From: Amphiura filiformis
Lineage: Eukaryota
Length of the DNA stretch: 64,000 bases
Direction: 5' to 3'
NCBI RefSeq assembly: GCF_039555335.1
Contig: NC_092633.1
Location: 21,100,334-21,164,333, forward strand
Under the pieces are notes generated by a model, which worked only from the letters and a program-made list of their open reading frames with translations, did no database searches and was not told where the DNA came from. A program made the translations under genes and the position numbers. Within the stretch, counting starts at the first letter, position 1. Each line of letters starts with the position of its first letter. This document shows, piece after piece, positions 14,656-63,793 of the stretch.

Positions 14656-14658
14656 TTA

Positions 14659-15237
14659 GGGAGGACAGTTTTTATGGTCTACTTAGCTCAGCAATTCTTT
14701 GCGTCTTCGATAGCGCATTGTATCGGAGAGGTACCTGGCTTTTATCAAAGCCCAAAACCATAAAAGCATGTAGCCAACTCTGTCAGGCTCCGCTCAATTG
14801 TCCACCCCGCTCCGATACGACACGTTGACCAAATATCAATCGAATCTATTTTACGACCCTGCTTGAATTAACCCCTTGAAACCTAATTGCACCACTTTTA
14901 ATTTTTATGTATTGGTCAGGCACAAACAAAATTAAACTTACACACATTATTGACTTTCTATTGACCACAAAACACGACCCCAGACATGCTTATTTAATGA
15001 CCACTTGAGTAGTTGATTTAAGTGGGTCGTTATGTACTTACTGAACACAAAGGAAATTGATTATGGTTTTACCATCGACCGTGTTTATAATCCTGCTGCT
15101 CTGCTGAACGCTCCGATAGATATCAGCAAACCCGTATACTATTCGCTTGTTCCTATCGAACGCTCTAGCGTACATGAACCATTATTGAAGACAGCAAAGC
15201 ATTGCTGAGCTAAGTAGACCATAAAAACTGTCCTCCC
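14659..15237. mobile_element. PIF/Harbinger-like MITE (579 bp) inserted into the 49-bp satellite
   Basis: Perfect 37-bp TIR gggaggacagtttttatggtctacttagctcagcaat. It is flanked by TTA at 14656-58 and 15238-40. The satellite unit reads through uninterrupted if the element plus one TTA is removed (tgcaaattgTTAcaactagatg). Confidence 0.7.
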
Positions 15238-15240
15238 TTA

Positions 15241-15790
15241 CAACTAGATGATAAAAATGATACAGTCAGTGTAATTATGCAAAGGTTTACAAGTGATGCT
15301 AAAATAATGTTTTCAGTGTCATTGTTTGAAAGCTTACAAAGTGCGGCTAAAGGGATGCTTTCAGCATTGTTATGCAAAAGCTTACAAATGGGTTAAGTGG
15401 TGCTAAAAGTGATGCTTTCAGTGTCACAGTGCAAAGGCTTACAACGTGGTGCTAAAAATGAAGTTTCAGTGTCATTATTTAAAAGCTTACAAAGTAATGC
15501 TGATGCTAAACGTAATGCTTCCAATGTCATTATGCACATTGTTACAACTAGATGCTAAAAATGATACATTCAGTGTAATTATGCAAAGGTTTACAAAGTG
15601 ATGCTAAAAATGATGTTTTCAGTGGCATTGTTTTAAAGCTAAAAGTAATGCTTCCCGTGTCACTATGCAAACGGTTACAAAGTGATGCTGATCAAATTGA
15701 TGCTGAAAGTGCTACTTTCAGTGCAAAGTGATGCTTAAAGTGATGCTTTTAGTGTCATTGTGTAAAGGCTTACAAAAATTGACACCAAAA
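15241..15790 (+). repeat. 49-bp satellite array (copy 2, part b)
   Basis: The array continues after the MITE. It ends in a truncated copy of the array 3' flank (15790-15895, cttacaaaaattgacaccaaaaatagtcatgtgctgacaggtgccaatg). Confidence 0.85.
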
Positions 15791-15895
15791 ATAGTCATGT
15801 GCTGACAGGTGCCAATGAAACTGTAAGTCCGCTTTTTCACGCCTCGCCGAATATTGCCAAGTTAGACTACTAAGGCGGTATTCTTCCATTTTCAA

Positions 15896-16240
15896 GAACA
15901 AAGGTTACAAAATGATGCTAAAAGTGATGCTTTCAGCGTCATTATGCACAAGATTAAAAATTGATGTTAAAAATGGTGTTTTCTTTGTAATTGTGCAAAG
16001 GCTTATATACTAATTTTCAGTGTCATTATGCAAAAGCATACATATTGATGATAAAAGTGCAACTTTCAGTGTAATTATGCAAAAAGCTGGCAAAGTATTG
16101 CTAAAACTGATGCTTTCAGTGTCATTATGCAAAAGCTTACAAAGTGATGCTAAAAGTGATGCTTTCAGTGTCATTATGCAAAAGCTTACAAAGTGATGTT
16201 AAAAGTGATGTTTTCAGTGTCAATATATAAAGGCTTACAC
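15896..16240 (+). repeat. 49-bp satellite array (copy 2, part c), followed by the complete 3' flank
   Basis: A second array block follows the internal flank copy. This implies an internal array-plus-flank duplication in copy 2. Confidence 0.85.
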
Positions 16241-17726: not shown

Positions 17727-18270
17727 GGGATCTGGAATGAGCGTTTTGAGCGTTTCGACAATATTTTTGTGGGACATGAGAGCACATCAGACATATCGAA
17801 TTGCATTCTGAATACGAAGAATGTCTTTCTGATATCAATTTTTTTTTTTTGAAATTCACGATATAAAACAAATTTTATGACAAATTATTAAATTTGATAT
17901 TTTTCACATTTTTGATATACATGTATAACAGTCCTCGAAGTAAATTTTATAAATCTAATGATATATTCTTAAAGTGTATGTAGCTAGGAGGTAAAGCCGA
18001 CGATCAATTGAAAATTTTGACCTTTCATCCCACCTACATACACTTTAAGTATAAATCATCAGATTTATAAAGTTTACTTCGAGTGCTGTTTCAACAAAAA
18101 TATCAATTTTCAATCATTTGCCATAAAATGTGTATTACATTGCGAATTTCAAAAAATCAAAATTATTTGATATCAGAAGGACATTCTTCGTATTCAGAAT
18201 GCAATTCGATATGTCTGATGTGCTCTAATGTCCCACAATAAATACTGTCTAAACGTTCATACCCCACCCC
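17727..18270. mobile_element. TTAA-flanked palindromic MITE (544 bp) with ~70-bp perfect subterminal inverted repeats and GGG...CCC termini
   Basis: TTAA at 17723-26 and 18271-74. 17762-17830 is the reverse complement of 18170-18237. The empty paralogous site at ~7388 (gcttTAAAtggcaccaaat) has a single TTAA. Confidence 0.7.
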
Positions 18271-19023: not shown

Positions 19024-19713
19024 TTACATATTTATAGAGTTCCATCTTTTATTCCATTCATACATTTTACCTTTATTGTTTGCAATGTGTTTTTCAGTCT
19101 CGGCGACAGTATTAAGCATACCTTTAAAACCTTGTATGTCCAGCTTATTTTTATTACATCTTGCATTATAAATAAACTTTTTCCCCTGAAGAACAACAAA
19201 ATTATAATGACAATAATCAACATCTAATATGCCCAACAGAACATCCTTCATGGTAAGAGTAACTCTTTTTTTAAAGATATTATCTTGAACCTTCTTCCAA
19301 AATTGAGCAGAAGTACCACATTGCCAAAATAAATGTGGGATATTTTCTAACTCCTGATTACAAAAAGTACAAAGATTTGAATCAACATAACCATATTTAA
19401 ATAGATTTTCATTTATACCTATAATTCTATGCAGAATTTTGAATTGAAAATACCTAAGTTTGGTTGATAGGGAGGAAGACAAGGAAATCCTGTAAATATC
19501 GTTCCAATTTAAATTCATATCATCAAAAAAGACAGCCCATTTGGCCTCGGCTTTGGGCGCAGTTAAACAACTTGTCAACGCAAATTTTGTGAACCAATTT
19601 GCAGACCTTCTTAGAGGAACAGATAAGAGCAAGCATATCATCATGATCATTCTGAACAGTTCCCAAGTCTTCCCCCCTCTCGACACTTCTGATCCATACA
19701 TTTGGAATGGCAT
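19024..19713 (-). pseudogene. L1-like ORF2 C-terminal region with Cys-rich motif and stop codon (copy B)
   Basis: ORF ends 19024. The ~130-bp 3'UTR then runs to the poly(A) at 18892. Confidence 0.7.
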
Positions 19714-21009
19714 AGATTAGAGCAAAATATTCCAGAAAGTTACATTGTAAATTATACTTGGTCTTCAAGATATCAAGGGGAAGAAAACTATCATCTTCAT
19801 TTAAAATATCAGAAATAAATTTAATACCTTTCTCATGCCAGACTTTTTTGTAAACAGTGTTTTGGGCGATAACAATAGATGAATTATTCCATAATATTTG
19901 ATGTCTAAAATGACTTGAAGGAGAATCATAAGTAATTGTACACCAAGCGTTGAGAATTTCACCAATAAACACATTCTTAATAAGCTTAATACATTTCTCC
20001 TCTGGTTTAGTGTTAAAAAAACAAAAAAGATTACCACCAATCTGTTTCATATAAAACATATAAAAACATTTCCATTTACCATTGTTGTTCACATCCAAGA
20101 GACGTTTAACCCAAGCCACTTTAAGCCCATTAATAACTGAGGGAATGTGAACCATCTTGAGGCCCCCTTTCTCATAGTCACCAATGATGGACTTTCTGCT
20201 GAGCTTATCTGGTTTTCCTGACCAAATAAATTTAAATATTATCGAGTCAACCTCCTTCAAAAAATTATCAGGTGGTTTAGGTAAAACAGAAAACAGAAAA
20301 ATTAATTGAGAAAGACCCAAGGATTTAACAATTGTAATTTTACCAATTGGACTTAAATCTCTCATCGACCAAATTCGCAAGATTTCCTTGAGTTTTTTGG
20401 AACGAAATTTAATTCAAAAATATTGCTCAGATCAGAACTAAAAACTACACCCAAAAGACGAACAGGATTGGCAGTAAAATGTAAATCATCATTGTTTAAA
20501 TCAGGAGGATTATCCTTAAACAAACCTAAAGGGAGTAACTCAGATTTATCCAAGTTAATTTTCAAGCCAGAATAAATTTGGAAAGTCTCAAGAATGTGAA
20601 CAACTCTGTGAAGGAGCCAACATCCTTTAAGTAAATAGTGGTATCATCCGCATAAGCACTAATAATAATTTCAGTATTCTCAACCATGATACCTTTAACA
20701 CTATTATCATTTCTGATGGCCAAATTCAAAATCTCACTACTAATTATATAAAGCAGCGGACTAAGTGGACAACCTTGACGAAGTCCACAAAACAATTAAA
20801 AAAATCAGAAGCATGTCCATTGTTCATAACACACGAGGTAATATCTGTATAGAAAACTTTCACCCAATTAATCAAATCATCACCAAAATTAAACAATTTT
20901 AATGCCCTAAACACAAAGGACCATTCAAGTTTGTCGAATGCCTTTTCAAAATCAATTAAAAACATAATACCAACAAAATTATTTTCTGTGCAACCTGATC
21001 ATTGGGTTT

Positions 21010-22714
21010 GAAGTACCACATTGCCAAAATAAATGTGGGATATTTTCTAACTCCTGATTACAAAAAGTACAAAGATTTGAATCAACATAACCATATTTAA
21101 ATAGATTTTCATTTATACCTATAATTCTATGCAGAATTTTGAATTGAAAATACCTAAGTTTGGTTGATAGGGAGGAAGACAAGGGAATCCTGTAAATATC
21201 GTTCCAATTTAAATTCATATCATCAAAAAAGACAGCCCATTTGGCCTCGGCTTTGGGCGTCTTAAACAACTTGTCAACGCAAATTTTGTGAACCAATTTG
21301 CAGACCTTCTTAGAGGAACAGATAAGAGCAAGCATATCATCATGATCATTCTGAACAGTTCCCAAGTCTTCCCCCCTCTCGACACTTCTGATCCATACAT
21401 TTGGAATGGCATAGATTAGAGCAAAATATTCCAGAAAGTTACATTGTAAATTATACTTGGTCTTCAAGATATCAAGGGGAAGAAAACTATCATCTTCATT
21501 TAAAATATCAGAAATAAATTTAATACCTTTCTCATGCCAGACTTTTTTGTAAACAGTGTTTTGGGCGATAACAATAGATGAATTATTCCATAATATTTGA
21601 TGTCTAAAATGACTTGAAGGAGAATCATAAGTAATTGTACACCAAGCGTTGAGAATTTCACCAATAAACACATTCTTAATATTAAAGCTTAATACATTTC
21701 TCCTCTGGTTTAGGGTTACATTCCCAAAAAAGATTACCACCAATCTGTTTCATATAAAACATATAAAAACATTTCCATTTACCATTGTTGTTCACATCCA
21801 AGAGACGTTTAACCCAAGCCACTTTAAGCCCATTAATAACTGAGGGAATGTGAACCATCTTGAGGCCCCCTTTCTCATAGTCACCAATGATGGACTTTCT
21901 GCTGAGCTTATCTGGTTTTCCTGACCAAATAAATTTAAATATTATCGAGTCAACCTCCTTCAAAAAATTATCAGGTGGTTTAGGTAAAACAGAAAACAGA
22001 AAAATTAATTGAGAAAGACCCAAGGATTTAACAATTGTAATTTTACCAATTGGACTTAAATCTCTCATCGACCAAATTCGCAAGATTTCCTTGAGTTTTT
22101 TGGAACGAAATTTAATTCAAAAATATTGCTCAGATCAGAACTAAAAACTACACCCAAAAGACGAACAGGATTGGCAGTAAAATGTAAATCATCATTGTTT
22201 AAATCAGGAGGATTATCCTTAAACAAACCTAAAGGGAGTAACTCAGATTTATCCAAGTTAATTTTCAAGCCAGAATAAATTTGGAAAGTCTCAAGAATGT
22301 GAACAACTCTGTGAAGGGAGCCAACATCCTTTAAGTAAATAGTGGTATCATCCGCATAAGCACTAATAATAATTTCAGTATTCTCAACCATGATACCTTT
22401 AACACTATTATCATTTCTGATGGCCAAATTCAAAATCTCACTACTAATTATATAAAGCAGCGGACTAAGTGGACAACCTTGACGAAGTCCACAAAACAAT
22501 TTTAAAAAATCAGAAGCATGTCCATTGTTCATAACACACGAGGTAATATCTGTATAGAAAACTTTCACCCAATTAATCAAATCATCACCAAAATTAAACA
22601 ATTTTAATGCCCTAAACACAAAGGACCATTCAAGTTTGTCGAATGCCTTTTCAAAATCAATTAAAAACATAATACCAACAAAATTATTTTCTGTGCAACC
22701 TGACCATTGGGTTT
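21010..22714 (-). repeat. Tandem duplicate of 19309-21009 (LINE 5' part plus TSD plus 15 bp of upstream flank)
   Basis: The junction at 20983-21011 reads ttctgtgcaacctgatcattgggttt|gaagtaccac. That is the TSD plus flank joined to internal LINE sequence (= 19309), with a 2-bp 'ga' microhomology. The two units are near-identical. Confidence 0.7.
22065..22670 (-). pseudogene. L1-like ORF2 reverse-transcriptase fragment (copy A)
   Basis: 201-aa ORF with FIDFEKAFD, RQGCPLSPLLY and YADDTTIY. The equivalent region in copy B (20362-20965) is broken into three frames by homopolymer indels. Confidence 0.8.
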
Positions 22715-23221: not shown

Positions 23222-23885
23222 CCGTACTTTAAATAAGTTGTATTTTGGGTTTTGGTTTAGGTAAAAACGTTTTAATAACATTAAAATGTCGGGTTATTAT
23301 AAAGGTCATGAAATCGTTTTAACACGTTTTGTATGAAAACACACTACAACAATATTTTTAAAATGTTTTTGAAATGTCATTGTAAACTATTTTTGCAAAC
23401 AATTTTAGCCAAATATTTTGTCAACACTTGAATAACATTATGTTAAAATATGTGCACCCAGCAAACACAGAAATGTTCTTAAAATGTTTTTTACAAAACG
23501 TTTTAATAACATTTAAATGTCGGGTTAAAGGTCGTGAAAACATTTTAAAAACGTTATTGTAAATATGTTGGGCAAACATTTTTTGCAAAATATTTTTCAA
23601 CCCCAAAATAACATTCTGTTTAGAATGATTTGTACCAAGTTTTCAAAAATGTTTTTGGAATGTTATTAAAACGTTTTTATACCCTTTATATAACCCGACA
23701 TTTAAATGTTTTCTGTAAAACATTTTTGTTTGCTGTGCAGTAAATTACCAACAAATGTTATTTAATGTTATGAAAATGTTTTATACCATTAATGTAGCCT
23801 TTATATAACCCGACATTTAAACGTTTTCTGACAACCTTTTGCGAATGATGTCGAAAACGTTTTGTGTTTGCTGGGTTCCAGCCGG
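23222..23885. mobile_element. MITE with internal palindromes, lacking its 5' TIR, inserted in a LINE tail
   Basis: Homologous to 62560-63360. The 3' TIR aaaacgttttgtgtttgctggg ends at 23885. Internal inverted repeats of the type ataacccgacattt / aaatgtcgggttat. Confidence 0.6.
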
Positions 23886-30640: not shown

Positions 30641-30873
30641 TGTCTGAGGTATCTCAATACAAATACTACCGAATCATTTTCTGAACACGAGTTACAAAAT
30701 ATGATACGCCTATATATGCGTTACTTATTCAGTTGTTCATTGGACTGTCGTTCTTCAATGGAATCTGTCTAGCAAGTTTGGAACGGGTGTTACTAAAACG
30801 AAGACAGGAGACCGAAGACGTTTAGCGAAGGTCTGCAATTCTCTATTTTAAGCCCACGGTTGAATAAAACATA

Positions 30874-31466
30874 CGAGGGGTATCAAAAAGTTTTAGAAAT
30901 CGCACAGAAGTGAAAGAGCTATATCAATGAAATTTTGTCAGTGCAATCACTGGTCCTTATGTACACTATGGTGCAAAAATGGTCTCATAAGTATGTTTAC
31001 TTTTTTTACAGGAGCTAGATGTCACTACCTGCCTATGTAACCGCATAACCAGCAAAATGGAGAAAATTGAGCCATGCAGCATGATTAAGTTCCATTTTAA
31101 GGGTTACAGTGCCCAGAAAATCTGTGATGAAATAAAAATTCCTTTTCCAAAAAGTGACAGTGACATATCACAATCACCACCGAAGATAACTTTCATTTCA
31201 TCATCAATTTTCTAGGCACAGCAACCCTTCAAAAGCTGGATCTTAATAATGCTGCTTGCCTCAATTTTCTCAATCTTGCAGTTTATGCGCAGTAATTGGG
31301 GCAGCGGGTTATTGGCATCTAGTGCCACCTGTAAAAAAAGCAAACATACCTATGAGACCATTTTTGGACCATAATGTACATAAGAACCAGTGATTGCACT
31401 GACAAAATTTCATTAATATAGCTCTTTCACTTCTGTGCGATTTCTAAAACTTTTGATACCCCCTCG
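30874..31466. mobile_element. TA-flanked MITE (593 bp) with ~125-bp TIRs, likely Tc1/mariner-mobilised
   Basis: 30874-30990 is the reverse complement of 31340-31466 (cgaggggtatcaaaaagttttagaaatcgcacagaagtgaaagagctatat...). TA dinucleotides at 30872-73 and 31467-68. Confidence 0.7.
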
Positions 31467-33272
31467 TACGCACCCTATGTTGTTTTAAAAATAATAGTAT
31501 CCAAATTTATTTGGTATCTTTTACTTCATGAATATATAGACTTCTGAATTCTTATGATTAGAGAAGTAGACTAAGTTTGGTGTGATTTCAACATTTTTGA
31601 ATATTATTTGACCCCTGTATACACTTCGATGACCTACTCCCGTCATCATGCAAAGAAATTTTCGCTCTTAAACCAAATTTGTTAGCCATGTCAAATGCTT
31701 CATCTGTCAATTTCTGTGTTTTTCCGGTAAAATGAACACTGCTTTCAACATTCTGCAGGTATAAAAATGGTAATATTGGCTAAAGGTTTCAAGTAAACTA
31801 CACTAAGTTCAATTTGCTAAACAAGTTGGTTGACACATTAATGGTTGGATATGGATCTCTTACACAAAATTAACCAAGTAGAGACAAACCTCTTCAGAAG
31901 CAACGGGCCTACCAGAAAAGACGTGATGTTCTCAATTACTTCGCTATATGAAGAGCTTTGTTTTAAAAACCCTTGCATCCACTTTTGGCTGAAATTGAGT
32001 TATTGACATGACATATAGTGTGGGTAAAAATACACATTTTGTGTCATACCACTTTCCCTTCCGGAGATATGGTATATTTCCCGTTTGGGAAATCTTAGGG
32101 AATTTCCGGAAATCTGAACATAAAATGAATATAAAATTGTTTTGTTTTAATTTTTTGATGTATACTAGTAGCATGGAATGTTCTTTACCTATTAAAACCA
32201 AAGGGAATTGTTTTTGGGTCACTATTTTTGAAAAAATCATTTTAATCAACAAAAGGTGTAGCTTCGGAAATACTCAAAAAAGTAAATAAAAAAGTAAATG
32301 AGATATTTCAATTTTTCTTTTTGATTTTGAAAGCATTAGTCAAGTTACATAAAGTAGTGCAAACAAATGGGCTCAAATATGATTGCAAAGGTGGTTTCTA
32401 GAAAAGGGGTAAATTTGTTTTGTTGCAAAAGCCCTTACATCCACAAAAGGCGCGATATAAAAGATATAATAAAATAAATAGGAAGGCTTCAAAATTGTAC
32501 CAAACCTATTCTTTTAGTTTCTATTCATCAACACTTTATCCAAACCCAAATTGAATCAAATCGAACCAGTAATATTTGCACAATTTAAAAAAGCTGTTTT
32601 TCTCAAAAAGTCAAAAGTGGATGTAAGGGGTTTTGCAACAAAGCTCTTCATATATCGGTTTAATGCAGCAATGACGCCCAGATCATCTAGTTTGTTAACT
32701 TCAAAAACGTTAACTTCAAATTTTCTAGACATATCAAGCGCTTCATCTGAGCCCATTTCTATGCTTTTTCGGCAACAGAACACTGCTTTCACCATTCTGC
32801 AGCACCAATCGTGCAAGCTAAAATAAGGAAACTAATGTTATAGATTATGTAATTTGCAGTATCAAACTTCATCCAGTTTATCAACAATATTTTCTTTGGA
32901 TAATTTCATTCAAACATTTATTCGATATAAATTTTATAGATTTTGAGCAGTTACAATTTTGGTTAACCAAATTGATAAGCTAATATACTCGTATGAGATG
33001 AAATATTATTGTAAATATTTCAAGAAAACATAAACAATAAACTATTCATTAAATTGTAAACGTCATTCAGAGCAGGATATGGTAATCTATCGGAGATAAC
33101 GAGTTTTATATCATAATACTAAAAAGTAAGACTTTTCGTGTATAAAGCACCAACATCGTCTGCCACTCGAGGAAAATAGCAAGTTCTTGAATATTTAGAA
33201 TGTTATATTTAAATAAGCAATTCAATTTAATGATATAAATCAATTACTGGCGATGCATGCATGTGACTTTTT

Positions 33273-36995: not shown

Positions 36996-37301
36996 CTAAC
37001 AAGATACATTGAAAAGATGAGTTTTGAGTCCTTTTTTGAAAGAGTTTATGTTTGATACTGAACGAAGCTTGAAAGGCAACTTGTTCCATACCTTTGGTGC
37101 AGCTGCGGCAAATGATCTTTCGCCGTAGAACTTGGTTTTACACTTCTTTGGAGCGCGTGTACAAAGGAGAGCTTGTGAAGCCGATCGTAGAGTCCGCTGT
37201 GGCTTATACTCCTCAATAAGATCGCTAATATATCTAGGAGCCAACCCGTGCAATGCCTTATAGGTAAGCAATGCAATCTTGTATACAATCCGCTGTTGCA
37301 C
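36996..37301 (-). CDS. L2 ORF2 extreme C-terminus, displaced into another frame by a frameshift
   Basis: ALLTYKALHGLAPRYISDLIEEYKPQRTLRSAS...APKVWNKLPFKLR...FKKGLKTHLF is the canonical L2 tail. Confidence 0.8.
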   Translation of the reverse strand: MQQRIVYKIALLTYKALHGLAPRYISDLIEEYKPQRTLRSASQALLCTRAPKKCKTKFYGERSFAAAAPKVWNKLPFKLRSVSNINSFKKGLKTHLFNVSC

Positions 37302-38434
37302 GGGAAGCCAATGGAGGGCTCTAAGACTGCAGGCTTCATGTGCTCATCCTTTCTGCACTTGGTAACGAGGCGCGCCGCAGTGTTCTGCACTCTCTGTAAC
37401 TTTGCGATTTCATTTTCTTGAAGTCCGTACAAAACAGCATTACATGAGTCTAAACGCGAGGATACAAATGCATGTACCAACCTCTCCACAGATGACTTGT
37501 CAAGATAGCGACGCAGCTTTCCAATACGGTAGATTGCAAAAGAGGCTGCACGGACAACACTCTTAACATGGTCTTTCATGTCCATAGATGAATCGAAGAT
37601 GACGCCGAGATTCCTTGCGACCCGCGATACCTCAATTTCAGATGTATCAATGGTGAGTTTGGGAAAGGATGGAGTTTTCACAAATTTTGAACTTATGTGA
37701 ACCACCTCAGTTTTTGAGTCATTCAAGACAAGCCTGTTTCTGATTGTCCATGCTTTGATGTCGCGAAGACAGAGTTCTAGTCTCGGGATGGCGAAATTGC
37801 GTTCACTTGGGTGAAGAAGCATGTACAGCTGCGTATCATCAGCATATGTCATGAAGTTGATGTTATGGGCGTTAATAACATCACCGATGGGGGCTGAGAA
37901 CAGAGTACACAAAAGGGGACCATTGACCGAGCCTTGAGGGACCCCGTCATTAAGGTCGAGACTGTCCGATAATTCTCCATTGATAACAACCGACTGAGAT
38001 CTGTTTTGAAGATATGACTCATACCATTTCAGTGCCGTTCCTGTTATGCCGTAGCGTTCACGCAGACGTTGAAGTAAAGCTGGGTGGGAAAGCGTATCAA
38101 ACGCTGCGGAAAAGTCTAGAAGTACTAAGACAGCTTCAAGATGTTGGTCAGCGGCGTTGAGAATGTCATTGTGAATTCTGGTGAGTGCAGTCTCTGTGGA
38201 ATGGAATTTCCGGTAGGCAGATAGATTAGGAGCGTAGAGATCATTTGCAACAAGATAGTCTGATAGTTGTGCTGCAGAAACTCGTTCAATTGTCTTTGAT
38301 AAGAACTTCAAGTTTGAAATTGGCCGGTAATTCTTCAGCTCATTTCGGTCAGAGTTCGCTTTCTTTAAAAGTGGAGTCACTTTGGAGACACATTGACGAT
38401 GTTGGTTATCTATGGCAGCAGTGGATCCAAACAT
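37046..38434 (-). CDS. L2-type ORF2 reverse-transcriptase domain
   Basis: 462 aa with YRPISNL, AYRKFHSTETAL, LLDFSAAFDTLSH, GVPQGSVNGPLL, YADDTQLY, LNDSKTE, LVHAFVSSRLDSCNAVLYGL and LQRVQNTAARLV. These are diagnostic CR1/L2-clade motifs. Confidence 0.9.
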   Translation of the reverse strand: MFGSTAAIDNQHRQCVSKVTPLLKKANSDRNELKNYRPISNLKFLSKTIERVSAAQLSDYLVANDLYAPNLSAYRKFHSTETALTRIHNDILNAADQHLEAVLVLLDFSAAFDTLSHPALLQRLRERYGITGTALKWYESYLQNRSQSVVINGELSDSLDLNDGVPQGSVNGPLLCTLFSAPIGDVINAHNINFMTYADDTQLYMLLHPSERNFAIPRLELCLRDIKAWTIRNRLVLNDSKTEVVHISSKFVKTPSFPKLTIDTSEIEVSRVARNLGVIFDSSMDMKDHVKSVVRAASFAIYRIGKLRRYLDKSSVERLVHAFVSSRLDSCNAVLYGLQENEIAKLQRVQNTAARLVTKCRKDEHMKPAVLEPSIGFPCNSGLYTRLHCLPIRHCTGWLLDILAILLRSISHSGLYDRLHKLSFVHALQRSVKPSSTAKDHLPQLHQRYGTSCLSSFVQYQT

Positions 38435-40131
38435 TTCTTCAAAAGACTAGTTGGAATTGGATCCAATGGACAGGACTTTGTAGATGATTTCAACACAATC
38501 TGGCAAACATCCTCATCTGATACCTCACGAAATGCAGTGAACTCACTCTCACACGAATCAGTTATATCAACAGATAGTCCAGGTGGATTAATGTTGTCAA
38601 GCGTATCTAACAGTCTTTTCACTTTCTTCTTGAAGAATTCTCCAAAGCCATTCGCGAGATCTTTGCAACATGAGTGGTCAGGAAGCACACTTGACGAGGA
38701 GGACTTGCTCAATTTGTTGACAATCTTGAACAGTTGGCGGTCATCACATTGACTGATTTGTGCACGGTGGTATTCACATTTTGCTCCTTCAAGTTGTTTG
38801 CGATATTCTTGGCAGTGTTGGACATACAGCTGGTGATCCACTTCCAAACCAGATTTTAACCATTTACGCTCACATTTTCGCTTTTCACGCTTATATGATC
38901 GTAGCTTGTCATCATACCAGGGGGCATTAGGTCTGTGCACTATTGTCCGAGTTCTCATAGGGGCATGGGAATCAAGCAAGCTGGAGAGCACATGTTCATA
39001 TCGGTCAACTAGAATGGAAGGATCGCCATCGAGATGATCAAATTTGCTTTCAGATGAACCAAGGGTCGACGATGTAATGTCAGTTTTAAACTGTTCCAGA
39101 TCAATACTTCGTAGGTTCCGCGAGCAAACTTCAACTTTTACAGGAGCTGGTCTTTGCACATCCATAAGACATTTCAATGGTTTATGGTCTGATGGAAGAC
39201 CATTCAAAATGGCCACACCAGAGATAAGCTCATCAGATGAACGCGAGATAATAACATCCAATGTGTGACCGTCCTTGTGCGTTGGACCATGGACATGTTG
39301 ACAGAGTCCACATGAATCTAAGAGATCCATAAATGCAGTCGCTTTGCGATCAGAGGAATCATCAAGATGGAAGTTCATATCACCGGTGATCAAAAGATGG
39401 CCCGGGGCAATGGTCAAAGTTTCCAAACGCTGGGAAAACTCTGTCATGAACATTTTCACTGTAAGTTTGTTTTCAGTTGATGGTGGTGGGCGGTAGATGA
39501 TGACCAACCTGATTGATGAGGATCCATTTGACAACAGTACATCGAGATATTCGAATGACTGGAAGATATGAATGTCATTGAGTCTAACATTGAATCCCCT
39601 ATGAACAATCAAACAGACGCCGCCGCCTCTGCGGTTTACACGAGGAGCATGGTGAATGGCGAAATGGGGCAGAGTGTTGATAATATCTGCAAGAGGAACT
39701 TCATCACGATCGTCTCCATCCAGCCATGATTCAGTAACGGCTAGAACATCAAGTTTCTGATCAATTATAAAGTCAGCAATAGACGCCGTTTTCTTTTTAA
39801 TTGAACGCGCATTCCATGATCCGAGACAGGCTTTTGGCAATGATTTTGTCTTTTTTGGTTTCTGTCCAGCTCCGACTGGGGCTGCAGGTAGTTCAACAAG
39901 ATAGCGCCGCCGCGAAGGCGGTGGTTTCAAATCAAATGGCTTGGGCGTGATATGAACTTCGATTTTGCGTCCTTTCCCCTTTCCTCCACGGCAACCTCGT
40001 CTTGTTTTTCTGGCAATACCAAGGTTGCTCAACGTAGTCCAGATAGATGGTTCAATATTATAACAATGTTGTTGATCACACCTTTTGTTCAGATTAAGTA
40101 GGATATCCTCACTGTATATTCGTGGAGGCAT
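38410..40131 (-). CDS. L2-type ORF2 N-terminal part: apurinic-like endonuclease (APE) domain plus linker
   Basis: 573 aa with LDVLAVTESWL, GGGVCLIVHRGF, LITGDMNFHLD and SDHKPLKC (the EEP/APE catalytic motifs). It overlaps the next ORF by 25 nt in another frame, which indicates a frameshift. Confidence 0.85.
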   Translation of the reverse strand: MPPRIYSEDILLNLNKRCDQQHCYNIEPSIWTTLSNLGIARKTRRGCRGGKGKGRKIEVHITPKPFDLKPPPSRRRYLVELPAAPVGAGQKPKKTKSLPKACLGSWNARSIKKKTASIADFIIDQKLDVLAVTESWLDGDDRDEVPLADIINTLPHFAIHHAPRVNRRGGGVCLIVHRGFNVRLNDIHIFQSFEYLDVLLSNGSSSIRLVIIYRPPPSTENKLTVKMFMTEFSQRLETLTIAPGHLLITGDMNFHLDDSSDRKATAFMDLLDSCGLCQHVHGPTHKDGHTLDVIISRSSDELISGVAILNGLPSDHKPLKCLMDVQRPAPVKVEVCSRNLRSIDLEQFKTDITSSTLGSSESKFDHLDGDPSILVDRYEHVLSSLLDSHAPMRTRTIVHRPNAPWYDDKLRSYKREKRKCERKWLKSGLEVDHQLYVQHCQEYRKQLEGAKCEYHRAQISQCDDRQLFKIVNKLSKSSSSSVLPDHSCCKDLANGFGEFFKKKVKRLLDTLDNINPPGLSVDITDSCESEFTAFREVSDEDVCQIVLKSSTKSCPLDPIPTSLLKKCLDPLLP

Positions 40132-48900: not shown

Positions 48901-49553
48901 TGTCATTCAAGGTCATTATACTCTCGATTCCCTGTTCCATAAATCGAAGGCAATGCTCTAAAAAAGCCCCCGTAAAATGAAAGAAATGCCAGTTTCGGGA
49001 AAACCGTGTCCTCAAAGACCTCGAATGGTATGTCAGAATATGTCACGATATTATTCGAGTGGAAACGAGCGAATAACAAAGAAAGCCTTTTAAAATATTG
49101 AAACCTAGCTTTAATGGCGTCAATCACATAATAACTACTCTGACAACTTCATTGAAAGAGTTGGCCTTGAGCACTAACTGGGTAATCCATCGGTGTATTC
49201 TATCGCATTTCATTCAGTAAAAGTGAAATCATGTCCGTAAATGGTGATTATCACTAATGTATGTGTCTTCAATAATATTTCTAATGCCACTCATGTTTGT
49301 ATAACTTCTCATCTTGAATAGAATGTGTTATGTGTAGCGGTGATCTAAAAGTATGTCAATGTCATTATTTATATGTTCATTGTGTACAATTTGAATCGTA
49401 ACACTTGTTTTTATTCTTTAATTTTACCTTGCTTTTCAAACTAGATGTGCGATGTAAGTATACCAGCTCTAATACATTGAAAATACTGCGCAAAAATCTA
49501 TATCGACAAACATAACAAAAATAGAACGATTCGAACCAGGTATACCAACTTAA

Positions 49554-49904
49554 GGGGGTACTACACCTCTGGCCAATTTTTTGCCTATTTGTGCAAAAAA
49601 AAAAAAATTATAGCACATTGGTGACAAGTAAGATATGTATATTATAGGGGCAAGGACTACAACTACTGCACTGAAAATTCAGCAACTCGAGGCAAGTAGT
49701 TATTGATTTATTGATCAAATATTGGTTTTCCCTCATTTTTGACTGTAACCCCACAACTGTTGTCTGTGCTGAAATAAAATTTCCAGTGCAGTAGTTGTAG
49801 TCATTGCCCCTATAATATATATATCTTACTTGTCCCCAATGCACTATAATTTTTGAGAAAAATGCAAAAATAGGCACAAAATTGGGCAGGGGTGTAGTAC
49901 CCCC
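49554..49904. mobile_element. TTAA-flanked MITE (351 bp) with ~125-bp near-perfect TIRs and GGGGG...CCCCC termini
   Basis: TTAA at 49550-53 and 49905-08. gggggtactacacctctggccaattttttgcctatttgtgc... is the reverse complement of the right arm. A paralogous near-empty site on the opposite strand at 50875-50915 reads gattcaaaccaggtataccaacTTGAtgtggggaacaagaca. Confidence 0.75.
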
Positions 49905-52900
49905 TTAATGTGGGAACAAGACAAAGACGAAATTAGATAAAAACTAGTGCAGTATGTAAACCATGGTGGTGTACACTGACACTGTACCAGCAAAAAAATC
50001 CAAAACCATGAGTAGCAGGCACAAATTACAGATAATAATAATTAAACTAAGGTAGCAAGCAAAAAATATATCAAAACCACAGAGGTAGAGAGCTAGCTTG
50101 TACCTGAAGAAGGGCAGTTTATCTACCCGAAACATCGATTGTAATTTTGTTTACTTTTGTCTACCATCCCTGTGTTTTTGGAACTTTTATTAGTGCAATG
50201 TCAGCCGGTCGTTTCAAATAATAAGTTTTAGTATTGGTTTTGGTTTTGATCACGGGTTTCAAGAAGTCCTAAGCTCTTGACTGACATCATTACCAATACA
50301 TTTGGCTGTACCTTTTGTTAGAAGGTTGAAAATTGTAGAAAACAGTTTTGGTTTTCATTTCAATTTGTTACATAATCGTGTGACCGCAGATTATCAGGTT
50401 TGAAGTTACCTTGATCAAAGTATTTTAATATTTCGCAGTGCAATTTTTACGAGCAGAAATGTCGAACAAGTCAATCTACGGCTTATTTCCACCTAAAAAA
50501 TATAGATCATCGAAATATTTCCACTGAGATTACAAAAGAATAGACACTCGAGTGGTATAAACACATCTATTCATGTGATAATCGCATGCATGAGGTTATA
50601 GCATATACGTATGGTCCTCTCAACACTATAAAAGTTGAATTTATCACTGAGCGAAAAGCGGTTGGTACTTGACCAATGAGGTAGTGGCGCTTTTCCCAAC
50701 GCAAGAAAAGGCGATCTACCGCATTGGGTAAAAACCAATCGCTGTCGATCACTATGTAGTATAAATTTAGCTTTAGATGTTATGATGCAGACAAGTGCTG
50801 CCCCTCTTTTAAATCCGCTGATTTTTGGTTTCTGAACAAAGGAGAAATGAAAACTTATAGGTAGCGTATACCTTGTCTTGTTCCCCACATCAAGTTGGTA
50901 TACCTGGTTTGAATCTTTCTGTTTTTATATATTCTAGGTATCCTCTTGTATCATCCTTGGATACCTTGGTGTGTTTTGTACCTCGTCCGTTGGAGACACT
51001 ATTAACTACTTTGATTAAATAAAACATTACAATATTATTAAACATAAATGGATAAGTATAGTTTTAATAGTTAATAAAAATTTACCTCTAACGGAAAACC
51101 TATAGTGTGTTTCTAATTCAATTATTTTTATTCTCGTTATTTTTCCTTTCGTCTTTGGATCTCACAGTATCATGCAGCAGTAAGTACATTACCAAACAAA
51201 CGCTTTTTCAAATGTTATAAGTATATTTTCACAGTTACTTTAAATAACTTTACTTGGTTATGCAATATGCATGTAATGTTACTGTGTATACTCATTTTTG
51301 TACTCAACTTCCTGTGTTATGTTTAATCGCATTCAAGTATTACACTATCCAATGTCAGTGTATGTCCTTGTAACCGTGCATAAACACAAATGTTATTCTT
51401 TGGAAAACACGATTATACATATCAATGGTAATTTGTCTGAGAGCCGATGAAATACTGTAACAACAGCCGTTGATCTAGAAACGATCCTCATCCCACGATA
51501 AATATTGTTTCTTACATCAAACGGTTACAAAAACCCCTTCTGGTTATTTCGATTAACAATCATTCTTATTATTTGCTTCACACTTGTATTGCTATTCTTA
51601 AAGTCTCCTCAATTATATACCGATCCAAAATGCCTACGCTTCGTCGAATTAAACATTTTGACATTTTTAAATAAGCATCGTAGACATAGATCTTGAACAT
51701 GCGAAAGCCAGTAGAAATAACATAAGGATAAATACAAAGGAATTCATTGTATATTATCCACGATATTAATCATGACTGCTCTATACTTGGCCTAAGAATA
51801 TATTCTCAAATATATTTAAGTGCACTTTTTTCCGTGTATTTCTCTGAAAATTAAAAAAACGAAAGAGTGTCTCTGATTGTGTTTATTACAAAACTTATAT
51901 TAAAGTTGTTCCCTATTCCTTCCCTTTAATAATACCTGTAAGTGGTATAGCCATATAAGTACACGCAAACAAAAATGGGGAAAAATTCTGTCTTTAAATA
52001 AACAATATATATTTTCAGACTTACATATGAACGTCAGATGTATACTTTTGATACTTTACTTTACTGATTATAAATTTCAGTATAATTGATACTAATATAA
52101 TATCTTAACTCTTTTTCTTAACTTTTTTTCTGTTCTATTCTCGCATCCATAGAATTGTAGAGGGGTAAGTTATTTATGTTGAAACTTTCAAGTTTTAAAA
52201 TGATGTGACTTCGAAAGTATCACGACAAAATCCATGAGAACTACCTGCCGATTGACCAAAAAGAAGTTTTCATTATCAATTGGACCAATCAGCAACATTG
52301 TTAGACTAATTTCACCACACATAAAATTGGGGTTAATTATTTGCAAAGCTCCATTCTGATTGGTGATTAAAGTGAAGATATCACGTAATTGACCAATCAG
52401 AGGCAATGTTAGATCGGCAGGTAGTGCTCAGGGGGTTAAGCTAATAATAAATGTCTGGTTCACGTCAAAAATACGTTCGTGACGAATACCCGTTAAGATA
52501 AAATATAGAGGGCGCCTGTCAATAATGCCCAATTGATTATGTAAAGGGACTTTTTCAGAGATCCGTATCAAATATATCTGTGAAATTTTCTAAATTCGCT
52601 TTAAAATTGCCCTGAAACAATTTTATTTTCAGAAATATCGACAAAATATGGTTATACGTAAGTCTTTGAGATCGCTTCCTCTATTGGATCCGCACAGAAT
52701 GCCCGGTCATAAAGAATTAAGATTAATCTCTCTTTATCTGAATCGCAGTGTCTAACTTATTCAACATCAGTCTCTTGATAATGCAGTTTCTAGCTAATTG
52801 TTCAATGTGAAGTGCCCAGCTAATTATTCAATGTGGTTACTATATATATTATGATTAAGTATTTTAAAAGTGCAAAATAATTGTCATGCATGATTATTAT

Positions 52901-53020: not shown

Positions 53021-53113
<93 letters not shown>

Positions 53114-53135
53114 ACTATTATTATTATTATTACTA
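53018..53135 (+). repeat. (ATT)n microsatellite, about 38 units with a few interruptions
   Basis: attattattatt... The poly-Ile ORF reported at 52987..53172 (-) is its translation artefact. Confidence 0.95.
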
Positions 53136-53369
53136 TTTCTGCAGATCTGGTCATCTGGTGGTAGTAGAACAAATAAACGAACAGATACAGTAAGTTTGCT
53201 TTTAAAGTGATATCACATTAACATGATTAAGAACTCTGTAACCCACCTTTGCACCGTATTTTTAGTGGGACCGTAGAGCATATCACACACATATATCCTT
53301 TTGATATCAAATAATATTTGAAATTCGCCTAATAATACAAAATGTATGGAAAATTAAACTTTATAAACC

Positions 53370-53560
53370 AAATGATACCGGTATGTACTTAAAGTGTATG
53401 TAGCTGGGAGGAAAAGCTGTTTAGACCTTTCTTATTGAGGATATAATTGTGGGAAACTTCAATATAAAAGGTCAACATTTTCATATGATGGTCGACTTTT
53501 CATTCCAGCTACATACAAGTACGTAGGATTACATTTCTATAAAGTCTACCTAGTTTAGTT
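53370..53560. mobile_element. Fragment related to the 17727-18270 MITE family
   Basis: cttaaagtgtatgtagctgggagg...ccagctacatacaagtac resembles 17975-18050. Confidence 0.4.
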
Positions 53561-53576
53561 TGAGGACTGAAAAATG

Positions 53577-53990
53577 CCATCAAATTTGTATTATATCGTG
53601 AAAAATCCAATATCAGAAGGACATTTCTCATAATCAGAATGTAATTTGGTGTGTTTGATGTACTCCCAGATCCCACAAAAACACTATGCAAAGGTGGGTG
53701 ACCGAGTCCTTAAATCAAATTTTGATTTTGTTGCCACAGAAAACACAAGCACTGAAAAATGTCAAATATGCCAATTTTTGCCATCAAATTTGTATCATAT
53801 CGGGAATTTCAAAAAATCAAAATTATTTGATATCAGAAGGACATTCCTCTTATTCAGAATGTAATTTAGTGTGTCCGATGTGCTCTCAGGTCTCACAAAA
53901 ATACTGTGCAACGGTGGGTGACCGAGCCCTTAAATCAAACTTTGATGCCACAGAAAACAGAAGCAACCCCAAAAAAACCGGAGCCTCTTC
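53577..53990 (+). repeat. 2 x ~204-bp tandem duplication derived from the 17727-family MITE arm
   Basis: ccatcaaatttgta...tatcagaaggacatt...attcagaatgtaattt.gtgtgt..gatgt.ctc..ag.tc.cacaaaaa..ctatgcaa.ggtgggtgaccgag.ccttaaatcaaa occurs at 53577 and again at 53781. Confidence 0.6.
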
Positions 53991-56199: not shown

Positions 56200-56480
56200 A
56201 AAAAATGTGATATTTTTGGAAAATATCTTCAATAAGAAAGGTCAAAATTTTCAATTGATCGTCGGCTTTTCATCACAGCTACATACACTTCAAGTACATA
56301 CCATTACATTTATACAAAAGACTATTAAATTAAAAAAATATCAATTTTTAATCATTTGCCATAAAATCAGAATTATTTGATATCGGAAGGACATTCCTCG
56401 TATTCAAAATGCAATTCGATATGTCTGGTGTGCTCTCAGGTACCACAAAAAAATATTTGACAACGTCGCTTTCCGAGCCC
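56200..56480. mobile_element. Fragment related to the 17727-18270 MITE family
   Basis: tatcggaaggacattcctcgtattcaaaatgcaattcgatatgtctggtgtgctctcagg matches 18170-18237. Confidence 0.45.
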
Positions 56481-56519
56481 TTAATGTATGTATGTATATT
56501 ATTATTGTTTTTTGCGGCT

Positions 56520-59195: not shown

Positions 59196-59745
59196 GTAAT
59201 TATCGGATTAACTACCATAGCAATAGGTTAAAATTATTTTTGAATATATCGCCCTGCACTCCTCATCACCTGTTTATGTCTACTCTGCAATCATAGATTG
59301 AATACAATACCGCCCTTTTCAAAGATACTAATCTTACAGGTGCGAGAGATCAGCATGATATGAATATTCTATAGAATTACGATCCAGGTATTTATCTCTG
59401 TTCTTTGACATCTATCTCTCAATGCAGAGATACCGCGTGAATGTAATAATGCAGTGCGACATATTCAAAAATTGTTTTAACCTATAGAGGTTATCCACTT
59501 TACTCATGCGTGATTTCTAACAAAAGGCACTGATTCCCGTATTCCTCATTCAAACCAATTCAATACACGACCTCGGAGTTACCTGCATGACTTTGGCGGG
59601 CTATTTTGAAGCATTCATGGTTGCACATGCAGGTACTTCTTTTGAAAGTCCTAAACAAGGTATAGCAGTCGCTGATAGGATTATGCAACTTATAGAACAC
59701 GGATAACCTCTATTGCTATTATTACACCACTTCTACGGCAAATAG
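59196..59745. mobile_element. Longer member (~550 bp) of the same MITE family
   Basis: TIR-like ends ccatagaagtgatgtaattatcggattaactaccatagcaatagg (left) and ctattgctattattacaccacttctacgg (right). Internal homology gattgaatacaataccgcccttttcaaagatactaatcttacaggtg. Confidence 0.5.
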
Positions 59746-62152: not shown

Positions 62153-62559
62153 AGGGGGGGGGGGTCAAAATTCAAAATTGCTCAAATTGTGTTGAAATCA
62201 ATTCCACAATATTCCTCTAGCAATAAGAATTCAGAAAATATATAATCTGACATATCTACTACATATCAGTCTTGAGTTACTAGTGGAAAAGATCGAAGGT
62301 CATGCTACATTTGGGCTTCACGGGCTTGACATGGGTCAAAACAGAAAATATCCTTTGATTTTGACGAATATGGCCTCAAACTGTTTATCTTGTTATAACA
62401 ATCCAAAACTAATAGTTTGCACTACGTAGGACATTTTGTTATCAATGAAACACAGCATAGATCACAGTCAGAGGAATCAATGGGTACTGACCCATTTCGC
62501 TGCGTTACCTAACTAATAAAATGCCATAGTAAAAACTATTCTTTTTCAATTGTTATAAT

Positions 62560-63360
62560 ATCCCAGCAAACACAAAAACGTTTTAAAAACGTTTTTAATA
62601 AGTCATATTTTGGCTTTTGGTTTACATAAAAACGTTTTAATAACATTAAAATGTCGGGTTATTTAAAGGTCATGAAAACGTTTTTAAAACGTTGTTGCAA
62701 ATATTTTAGGCAAACATTTTTCGCAAAATATTTTTTCAACCACAAAATAACATTCTGTTTAGAATGTTTTGTATCAAGTTTTCAAAAATGTTTTAAAACG
62801 TTTTGTATGAAAACACACTACAACAATATTTTTAAAATGTTTTCAAAAATGTTATTGTAAACTATTTTTGCAAACATTTTTTGCAAATATTTTGTCAACA
62901 CTTAAATAACATTATGTTAAAATATTTGCACCCAGCAAACACAGAAATGTTCTTAAAATGTATTTTTGAAAACGTTTTAATAACATTTTAAAAATGTCGG
63001 GCTATATAAAGGTCATGAAAATGTTTTTAAAACGTTGTTGCAAATATTTTAGGCAAACATTTTTCGCAAAATATTTTTTCAACCACAAAATAACATTCTG
63101 TTTAGAATGTTTTGTATAAAGAATACAAAAATGTTTTTGGAATGTTATTAAAACGTTTTTATACCCTTTATATAACCCGGCATTTCAACATTTTCTGTAA
63201 AACATTTTTTGTTTGCGCAGCAGTACATTATCAAAAAATGATTTTTAATGGTATGAAAACGTTTTATACCCTTTATATAACCCGACATTTAAACGTTTTT
63301 TGACAACCTTTTATAACCTTTTGCGAATGATGTCGAAAACGTTTTGTGTTTGCTGGGATA
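62560..63360. mobile_element. Full-length member of the same MITE family (TIR cccagcaaacac...gtgtttgctggg) with an internal ~340-bp tandem duplication
   Basis: 5' end atcccagcaaacacaaaaacgtttt at 62562. 3' end aaaacgttttgtgtttgctggg at 63335-63357. 62620-62760 repeats at 62960-63110. Confidence 0.6.
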
Positions 63361-63730: not shown

Positions 63731-63793
63731 GAAGAAGAAGAAGAAGAAGAAGAAGAAGAAGAAGAAGAAGAAGAAGAAGAAGAAGAAGAGGAA
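63731..63793 (+). repeat. (GAA)n microsatellite, about 21 units
   Basis: gaagaagaag... The poly-Arg ORF at 63724.. is an artefact. Confidence 0.95.

What the first reader, a model, noticed from the sequence alone, without database searches (positions are those of the whole stretch)
49550..50915. Second, unrelated TTAA-flanked MITE with the same GGG...CCC end logic, plus a near-empty paralogous site 1 kb away on the opposite strand
Element 49554-49904 is 351 bp with ~125-bp near-perfect TIRs and is flanked by TTAA. The 22 bp on each side (gattcgaaccaggtataccaac | tgtgggaacaagaca) reappear contiguously in reverse orientation at 50875-50915 with TTGA at the junction. Two sequence-unrelated MITE families in this window share TTAA flanks and G-run/C-run termini. 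This suggests one transposase superfamily mobilising multiple non-autonomous families in this genome.
Basis: seen in the sequence. Interest (0 to 1): 0.55.

Follow-up and report, generated by a model that had tools for sequence, protein, structure and literature searches.

The report
Kolobok-type TTAA MITE, brittle star genome
This is a 351-bp non-coding, hairpin-shaped relic of a cut-and-paste DNA transposon (a MITE) inserted at a duplicated TTAA, almost certainly in the brittle star Amphiura filiformis; it is an ordinary example of a well-known kind of genomic debris, and its ends fit the Kolobok superfamily better than piggyBac.

Summary
Element 49554-49904 is 351 bp, has about 126-nt inverted arms (85% identical, so not near-perfect) and is flanked by TTAA on both sides. 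With the element and one TTAA removed, the flanks match 50873-50926 in inverted orientation (49/54), with TTGA at the junction.

The window is an animal genome. Its LINE proteins are 97-98% identical to Amphiura filiformis proteins.

The "empty site" is the only other copy in the window. It forms a 54-62-bp inverted repeat with the insertion site, so it is more likely the partner arm of an older inverted repeat than an independent paralogue.

The other TTAA/GGG...CCC family (17727-18270) has two more copies in the window. All five independent ends abut TTAA.

TTAA duplication plus purine-purine...pyrimidine-pyrimidine termini is the published signature of Kolobok (for example Xenopus T2-MITEs). 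piggyBac ends start with a conserved C.

A GGG...CCC MITE at 14659-15237 makes a 3-bp TTA duplication, so G-run ends alone are not diagnostic. The two TTAA families share no terminal motif beyond the G-run.

I found no transposase in the window and could reach no other copies, so copy number and the autonomous partner are untested. The finding is ordinary and of low interest.

The parts
49550..49553 (.). Left TTAA (target-site duplication, left copy)
   Evidence: Read directly. Complementarity between the two flanks stops just outside it.
49554..49904 (.). MITE B, 351 bp, 36.8% GC, termini 5'-GGGGGTACTACACC...GGTGTAGTACCCCC-3'
   Evidence: No Pfam domain in its 98-aa ORF and no protein homologue. 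No Rfam match even at E<=1. Single copy in the window.
49554..49679 (+). Left inverted arm, about 126 nt
   Evidence: 108/127 identical to the reverse complement of the right arm.
49680..49777 (.). Central, largely non-palindromic 98-bp core
   Evidence: 98 nt between the inner arms; irregular apical region of the hairpin.
49778..49904 (-). Right inverted arm
49905..49908 (.). Right TTAA (target-site duplication, right copy)
49517..49553 (+). Outer inverted repeat, left arm, part before the MITE (ends in the TTAA)
   Evidence: (I3).
49909..49925 (+). Outer inverted repeat, left arm, part after the MITE
   Evidence: the alignment runs straight across the junction once the MITE and one TTAA are removed.
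50873..50926 (-). Outer inverted repeat, right arm: the uninterrupted 'empty site', with TCAA (= TTGA) at 50890-50893
   Evidence: 49/54, 1 gap, E = 3e-13; only these two copies in the window; extends to about 62 bp; no convincing TSD outside.
17727..18270 (.).
   Evidence: (arms 81% over 254 columns).
53231..53709 (.). Family A relative (copy C), TTAA at 53227-53230 and 53710-53713, ends GAACTCTG... / ...CGAGTCC
56236..56480 (+). Family A partial copy (right half), 3' end ...CCGAGCCC followed by TTAA at 56481-56484
14659..15237 (.). Control element: a GGG...CCC-ended MITE with a 3-bp TTA duplication (14656-14658 and 15238-15240), inserted in a 49-bp satellite
   Evidence: With the element and one TTA removed, the flanks stay in register with the satellite unit.

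Best explanation
MITE B is a non-autonomous cut-and-paste DNA transposon. It has no coding capacity and consists mostly of two ~126-nt terminal inverted repeats.

A transposase supplied in trans bound its ends and inserted it at a TTAA, which was duplicated on insertion. The target lay inside one arm of a pre-existing 54-62-bp inverted repeat. The other arm keeps the uninterrupted sequence.

The combination of a TTAA duplication with 5'-GG...CC-3' termini is the published signature of the Kolobok superfamily (THAP + DDE + H2CH transposases), as in Xenopus T2-MITEs. The unrelated family A in the same window carries the same signature and is probably served by the same superfamily.

Shown here: the inverted repeats, the TTAA flanks, the uninterrupted sister sequence and the lack of coding capacity.

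Inferred: past mobility by transposition, the 4-bp size of the duplication for this particular element, and the Kolobok assignment.

My confidence that it is a TTAA-site TIR transposon relic is about 0.9. My confidence that the superfamily is Kolobok is about 0.55.
For: - Structure and flanks.
- Uninterrupted sister sequence with one TTRA where the element sits.
- A symmetric 3-bp model fails. It would need TAA on the left and TTA on the right, which are not a direct repeat.
- All 7 independent ends of B, A, C and the 56.4-kb copy abut a full TTAA, while the next base outward varies. Under a TA model with A...T terminal bases, the extra T and A would have to recur by chance. This is roughly 0.325^7, about 4e-4, using the window base frequencies (my own rough calculation).
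[quoted passage not shown] - Literature on T2-MITEs: defined by a TTAA target plus a terminal AGGRR motif. The full-length Xenopus Kolobok A5 TIR is AGGGGAACTATCATGA; here it is GGGGGTACTACACCTC, 8 of the first 11 identical (PMC6004289).
- Literature on piggyBac: the first base of the TIR is a highly conserved C, with a CC[C/T]T motif and 12-19-bp TIRs (PMC5381638, PMC2872659).
- Host context: A. filiformis has 59% repeats and a recent burst consisting mostly of DNA transposons (PMC11310086).
Against: - Only one copy of B is available, so multi-copy status and a consistent TSD are unproven for this family.
- The palindromic TTAA leaves TA, TWA and TTAA formally indistinguishable at this one locus.
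- No Kolobok transposase remnant is in the window (tblastn with 7 Kolobok catalytic cores, all E > 0.5).
- A profile search with T2-type Kolobok cores returned 120 proteins. One was from an echinoderm (Apostichopus japonicus, E = 8e-13) and none from A. filiformis. That search is limited by its word index.
- Echinoderms are not in the published host list for canonical Kolobok; only the KolobokP lineage is reported there (PMC9587614).
- Similarity to known Kolobok ends (8/11) falls short of Repbase's working rule of at most 1 mismatch in positions 1-11 (PMC4455052).
Confidence: 0.55

Rival explanations
1. A piggyBac-derived MITE, mobilised by a piggyBac-like transposase that also targets and duplicates TTAA.
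For: TTAA on both sides. piggyBac MITEs flanked by TTAA are well known in marine invertebrates, for example coral CMITEs (PMC2872659).
Against: The first TIR base in piggyBac is a highly conserved C (C[C/A/T][C/A/T], usually CC[C/T]T), with a functionally important 3' terminal G, and the TIRs are 12-19 bp. Here both ends start with G (GGGGG...CCCCC) and the arms are about 126 nt. The same holds for all ends of family A. No DDE_Tnp_1_7 domain is in the window.
Confidence: 0.12
2. The real duplication is shorter than 4 bp. Either it is a Tc1/mariner-type (Stowaway-like) element with a TA duplication and ends AGGGGG...CCCCCT, or a PIF/Harbinger-type element with a TTA/TAA duplication. The full TTAA would then be coincidental.
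For: The empty site is identical under the TA, TTA, TAA and TTAA models because TTAA is palindromic. The window does hold a GGG...CCC MITE with a proven 3-bp TTA duplication and a mariner-like MITE with TA|CGAGGGG ends at 30872-31468.
Against: A 3-bp model needs asymmetric ends (AGGGGG...CCCCC or GGGGG...CCCCCT). The TA model needs T at -3 and A at +3 by chance at both ends of B and at all 5 ends of family A, roughly 4e-4 (my own rough calculation).
Confidence: 0.12
3. A MITE of another TTAA- or AT-rich-4-bp-duplicating superfamily (for example Sola), or of a lineage not yet described.
For: Nothing ties the element to a specific transposase. No A. filiformis Kolobok protein was recovered. Sola elements make AT-rich 4-bp duplications (AWWT in Sola2; PMC3627910). 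Pfam cannot detect Sola or Kolobok nucleases (PMC5751038), so says nothing about them.
Against: The Sola2 duplications described are AWWT (ATAT, AAAT, ATTT), not a fixed TTAA. TTAA plus RR...YY is exactly the stated Kolobok signature.
Confidence: 0.13
4. Not a mobile element: a local palindromic duplication or hairpin-forming sequence that happens to lie between two TTAAs.
For: Only one copy was seen. No hits in the viral, metagenome or prokaryote-genome collections.
Against: The boundaries are exact. The sister arm is colinear up to and across a single TTRA. The architecture and flanks are the same as in an independent multi-copy family in the same window. The collections searched do not contain this genome, so the absence of hits says nothing.
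Confidence: 0.03

Closest known systems
Xenopus T2-MITE families (non-autonomous Kolobok; e.g. Xmix/T2-A1, T2-C) and Xenopus XKol elements
   Same: TTAA target and duplication. Purine-run terminus (T2: AGGRR; XKol A5: AGGGGAACTATCATGA; here GGGGGTACTACACC). Short, non-coding, TIR-bounded. Many sequence-unrelated subfamilies share only the TTAA target and the terminal purines (PMC6004289).
   Different: The first base is G, not A. Only 8 of the first 11 terminal bases match the closest Xenopus TIR. The arms are much longer (about 126 nt). The host is an ophiuroid. No linked transposase has been identified.
piggyBac-type MITEs (coral CMITEs; piggyBac-like elements)
   Same: Flanked by TTAA; small non-coding TIR element in a marine invertebrate (PMC2872659).
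   Different: piggyBac ends begin with C (CC[C/T]T...AGGG) and the TIRs are 12-19 bp. This element begins with G and ends with C.
PIF/Harbinger (Tourist-like) MITEs
   Same: GGG...CCC-type termini and an AT-rich target. One such element (14659-15237, TTA duplication) lies in the same window.
   Different: The duplication is 3 bp (TWA). With symmetric ends, MITE B and family A cannot be fitted to a 3-bp direct repeat.
KolobokP (the Kolobok lineage reported in echinoderms)
   Same: Same superfamily candidate, with RR...YY termini; reported in Asteroidea, Echinoidea and Holothuroidea (PMC9587614).
   Different: KolobokP has long terminal direct repeats of about 450 or 660 bp, each with short TIRs of at most 18 bp, and duplications of 3-5 bp. 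MITE B is a 351-bp near-palindrome flanked by TTAA.

Membership tests
MITE (as a class) | Short (<800 bp) with terminal inverted repeats | tested here: met
   351 bp; arms about 126 nt at 85%.
MITE (as a class) | No transposase coding capacity | tested here: met
   No Pfam hit for its ORFs; no protein homologue of the 98-aa ORF.
MITE (as a class) | Flanking target-site duplication | tested here: met
   TTAA on both sides, with one TTGA at the uninterrupted sister arm.
MITE (as a class) | Many homogeneous copies in the genome | not testable with these tools
   One copy in the window. The host genome could not be reached, and pattern scans of the other collections gave 0 hits.
Kolobok superfamily (non-autonomous member) | [quoted passage not shown] | tested here: inconclusive
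   TTAA/TTAA at this copy, but TA, TWA and TTAA cannot be separated at a palindromic site. Supported indirectly: 7 of 7 ends of B and family A abut a full TTAA with variable bases outside it.
Kolobok superfamily (non-autonomous member) | Termini 5'-RR...YY-3' | tested here: met
   GG...CC at both ends. Criterion from PMC9587614.
Kolobok superfamily (non-autonomous member) | Terminal alignment to a known member, positions 1-11 with at most 1 mismatch (Repbase working rule) | tested here: not met
   Best comparison available: XKol A5 AGGGGAACTAT versus GGGGGTACTAC, 3 mismatches (rule). Only the ten Xenopus TIRs printed in PMC6004289 could be compared; Repbase itself was not available.
Kolobok superfamily (non-autonomous member) | Autonomous partner in the same genome with matching TIRs, encoding a THAP/DDE/H2CH transposase | not testable with these tools
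   None in the window (tblastn). A profile search found one echinoderm hit and no A. filiformis hit. A. filiformis loci cannot be fetched.
piggyBac superfamily (non-autonomous member) | TTAA target-site duplication | tested here: inconclusive
   Same evidence and same palindrome caveat as for Kolobok.
piggyBac superfamily (non-autonomous member) | TIR begins with the conserved C (CC[C/T]T motif) and ends with G | tested here: not met
   Begins GGGGG and ends CCCCC. Criterion from PMC5381638 and PMC2872659.
PIF/Harbinger (Tourist-like) | 3-bp TWA target-site duplication | tested here: not met
   With symmetric ends the flanks read TAA on the left and TTA on the right, which is not a direct repeat. 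Compare 14659-15237, where TTA/TTA is clean.
Tc1/mariner (Stowaway-like) | TA target-site duplication | tested here: inconclusive
   Formally possible with ends AGGGGG...CCCCCT. Disfavoured by the invariant outer T and A at 7 of 7 ends.

The most novel reading that the evidence does not exclude
The TTAA-flanked, G-initial MITE families in this brittle star are mobilised by a transposase lineage not yet catalogued for echinoderms. That would be either canonical (non-P) Kolobok, which the 2022 survey does not list for the phylum, or an undescribed TTAA-specific lineage. In either case they would belong to the DNA-transposon burst of 10-15 million years ago reported for A. filiformis.
Probability: 0.15. 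Interest if true: 0.3.

Novelty: new member of a known kind. Interest (0 to 1): 0.13.

Why it matters
It matters little beyond annotation. It gives a clean nested-insertion example. It also makes a practical point: TTAA-flanked MITEs should not be filed under piggyBac by default, because the first terminal base (G/R versus C) separates Kolobok-type from piggyBac-type ends. If confirmed genome-wide, it would add Ophiuroidea to the hosts of Kolobok-type non-autonomous elements. It would also help classify part of the large 'DNA transposon' fraction of the A. filiformis genome.

Tried and rejected
**Finding more copies**
- Exact-pattern scans for the TIR (GGGGGTACTACACCNCTGNCCAA, TTAAGGGGGTACTACACC) found nothing in viral contigs, JGI metagenomes (two scans) or prokaryote genomes.
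- A protein search with the MITE's 98-aa ORF, meant to catch gene calls on sequencing-run assemblies, found nothing.
- Searching the literature for the terminal sequence found nothing.

**Reaching the host genome**
- Encoding-contig look-ups for a window LINE ORF and for three NCBI A. filiformis proteins were all 'not on record'.
- The one locus obtained (L001, from an ENA metagenome assembly) belongs to another species (72% nucleotide identity in the LINE) and has no copy.

**Looking for a transposase**
- Pfam on all 94 non-LINE ORFs of at least 75 aa gave only one extra reverse-transcriptase fragment.
- tblastn with 7 Kolobok catalytic cores copied from the supplement of PMC9587614 gave nothing significant. 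The text of those cores is partly degraded by OCR.
- A profile search with T2-type Kolobok cores gave no A. filiformis hit.

**Other checks**
- Rfam gave nothing for the window at gathering thresholds or for 49000-51500 at E<=1. No tRNAs were found.
- I counted TIR pairs flanked by each 4-mer as a window-level test of TTAA enrichment. I rejected it as uninformative because palindromic 4-mers inside long inverted repeats are counted too.
- I looked for a target-site duplication around the outer 54-62-bp inverted repeat. Only a weak ATA candidate turned up, so whether it is itself a transposon remains open.
- The A. filiformis genome paper and its held supplements do not mention Kolobok, piggyBac, Harbinger or Sola.
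- The Sola paper (Bao et al. 2009) is not held.
Full report
**What the window is**

The window is AT-rich (about 34% GC). It has no tRNA or Rfam hits and is full of inverted-repeat elements.

It carries two non-LTR retrotransposons with endonuclease and reverse-transcriptase domains. The reverse-transcriptase ORF at 37046-38434 is 97-98% identical to annotated Amphiura filiformis proteins (P0103, P0105).

The window is therefore almost certainly from the brittle star A. filiformis. The genome paper describes that genome as 1.57 Gb, 59% repeats and 36.7% GC, with a recent burst consisting mostly of DNA transposons (PMC11310086).

**Checking the observation**

TTAA lies at 49550-49553, then 5'-GGGGGTACTACACC...GGTGTAGTACCCCC-3' at 49554-49904 (351 bp), then TTAA at 49905-49908.

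The arms are about 126 nt long. They are 85% identical (108/127), not near-perfect, and include a 7-nt block where an A-run faces TTTTCTC. The signal is far above chance:
- Self-reverse-complement BLAST gives E = 7e-55.
- As single-stranded DNA it folds into one long hairpin of -114 kcal/mol, z = -21.

It has no Pfam domain, no protein homologue and no Rfam match. It occurs once in the window.

**The 'empty site'**

I removed the element and one TTAA and compared the joined flanks with the neighbourhood. This gives a single 54-bp match to 50873-50926 on the opposite strand, 49/54 identical with one gap, E = 3e-13. TTGA stands where the filled site has TTAA-element-TTAA. A looser alignment stretches the match to about 62 bp.

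Nothing else around the two sites is similar, and these are the only two copies in the window. The two sequences therefore form an inverted repeat whose arms are about 950 bp apart once the MITE is discounted.

The simplest reading is that the MITE landed inside one arm of a pre-existing inverted repeat. That repeat could be the ends of an older ~1-kb TIR element or a local inverted duplication. I found no convincing duplication outside it, so this stays open.

The uninterrupted arm still serves as a related empty site and fixes the element's boundaries. However, TTAA is palindromic. The same empty sequence is predicted by a TA, TTA, TAA or TTAA duplication, so it does not settle the duplication length.

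**The second family, and what it adds**

Unlike B, it has relatives in the window:
- A 479-bp copy at 53231-53709, with TTAA on both sides.
- A right-half copy ending ...CCGAGCCC|TTAA at 56480/56481-56484.
- A fragment at 53753-53929, which belongs to a local duplication of the 53.7-kb copy's right end plus flank and so is not independent.

That gives five independent family A ends plus the two ends of B. All seven abut a full TTAA, and the next base outward varies.

Three consequences follow:
- A 3-bp duplication with symmetric ends is excluded, because the flanks would read TAA on the left and TTA on the right.
- A TA duplication with A...T as the terminal bases would need T and A to recur by chance at seven ends. 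That is roughly 4e-4 with the window's base frequencies (my own rough estimate).
- A 4-bp TTAA duplication is therefore the best-supported model.

**Which superfamily**

Two well-described eukaryotic superfamilies duplicate TTAA. [quoted passage not shown]

Xenopus T2-MITEs are defined by a TTAA target plus a terminal AGGRR motif. Full-length Xenopus Kolobok elements have TIRs such as AGGGGAACTATCATGA flanked by TTAA (PMC6004289).

piggyBac-like elements have 12-19-bp TIRs. Their first base is a highly conserved C, usually within CC[C/T]T, and their 3' terminal G is functionally important (PMC5381638, PMC2872659).

MITE B (GGGGG...CCCCC) and every family A end (GGG/GGA/GAA...) begin with two purines and never with C. 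On the published criteria both families look like Kolobok-type non-autonomous elements, not piggyBac. Several sequence-unrelated MITE families sharing only the TTAA target and purine ends is exactly the T2-MITE situation in frogs.

**Limits of the 'same end logic' idea**

B and family A share only the G-run. There is no common 8-10-nt terminal motif: GGGGGTACTACACC versus GGGCTCGGTCACCCACC / GGGATCTGGAATGAGC.

A third MITE at 14659-15237 also has GGG...CCC ends, but it makes a 3-bp TTA duplication. It interrupts a 49-bp satellite, and removing it with one TTA restores the satellite register. That is PIF/Harbinger behaviour. G-run/C-run ends alone are therefore not diagnostic of one superfamily. 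The duplication length is what separates the elements.

**What could not be shown**

I could not reach the rest of the genome:
- Look-ups for A. filiformis proteins failed.
- The one related locus I did obtain belongs to another species.
- Pattern scans of the viral, metagenome and prokaryote collections found nothing.

No DNA transposase is in the window by Pfam. Pfam cannot see Kolobok or Sola nucleases (PMC5751038), so I also ran tblastn with seven Kolobok catalytic cores taken from the supplement of PMC9587614. Nothing was significant.

A profile search with T2-type Kolobok cores returned 120 proteins, mostly from fish, molluscs and cnidarians. One was from the sea cucumber Apostichopus japonicus and none from A. 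filiformis. That search is limited by its word index, so the negative result is weak.

The best terminal match to a published Kolobok TIR is 8/11. This is below Repbase's working rule of at most 1 mismatch in positions 1-11 (PMC4455052).

Three things therefore remain untested: the copy number of B, the consistency of its TSD across copies, and the identity of the autonomous partner.

**Verdict**

Three corrections are needed:
- The superfamily is more likely Kolobok than piggyBac.
- The 'paralogous site' is most likely the sister arm of an inverted repeat.
- The G/C end rule is not specific.

This is a routine transposon relic in a repeat-rich invertebrate genome. At most it is a new family of a known kind, and it is of low interest.

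Noticed in passing
window 14656-15240, inside the arrays at 13416-14658 and 15237-16239 (the same satellite also at 2307-2955): A 579-bp MITE with GGGAGGACAG...CTGTCCTCCC ends and a clean 3-bp TTA duplication interrupts a 49-bp satellite (unit TTTCAGTGTAATTATGCAAAAGCTTACAAAGTGATGCTAAAAGTGATGC). The satellite register is restored when the element and one TTA are removed. It looks like a PIF/Harbinger (Tourist-like) element.
   Followed up: yes
window 17727-18270, 53231-53709, 53753-53929, 56236-56480: Family A, the other TTAA-flanked MITE family, has at least three independent copies or part-copies in the window, about 80-90% similar in the matching parts. Their ends have diverged (GGGATCTGG, GGGGTGGGG, GAACTCTG, GGACTCGG, GGGCTCGG).
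   Followed up: yes
window 53610-53751 versus 53830-53965: A local direct duplication (84.5% over 142 bp) copies the right end of the 53.7-kb family A element together with its TTAA and downstream flank. The fragment at 53753-53929 is therefore not an independent insertion.
   Followed up: partly
window 30872-31468: A 597-bp element with 141-nt arms (92%) and ends TA|CGAGGGGTATCAAAAAGTTTTAG...; it looks like a mariner-type MITE with TA flanks.
   Followed up: no
window 37046-40131 (minus strand): A non-LTR retrotransposon with Exo_endo_phos endonuclease and RVT_1 domains in two overlapping ORFs (573 and 462 aa). It is 97-98% identical over part of its length to A. filiformis proteins. This identifies the host and coincides with the GC-richer stretch at 36-40 kb.
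   Followed up: partly
window 19310-20900 versus 21010-22605 (minus-strand ORFs 19024-22670): A second LINE-like element carries a 1.6-kb internal direct duplication at 98.9% identity. The same ORF start (MRIWSMRDLSPIGK...) occurs twice.
   Followed up: partly
window about 4185-5988: A 1.8-kb unit is bounded by long, multi-segment inverted repeats (74 nt at 86%, 54 nt at 91%) that extend further out than the tool's arms. This may be a larger non-autonomous TIR element.
   Followed up: no
window 50640-50770: Inside the outer inverted repeat there is a GC-richer stretch with two CCAAT motifs followed by TATAAAT. It looks like a promoter, but there is no evident downstream ORF and no Rfam match.
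   Followed up: partly
window 53021-53137 and 63731-63793: Microsatellites: (ATT)39 and (GAA)21.
   Followed up: no
window 62559-63360 and 23267-23674: Clusters of short inverted and direct repeats are built on the motif ACGTTTTAAAAACGTTTT / TTTAATAACATT, including a 184-bp tandem unit. They were not classified.
   Followed up: no
L001 4031-4123 versus window 59484-59573: A 93-bp stretch is 81% identical between the window and a contig of a different, echinoderm-like organism from an ENA metagenome assembly (ERZ25070167). It is possibly a conserved repeat or element fragment.
   Followed up: no
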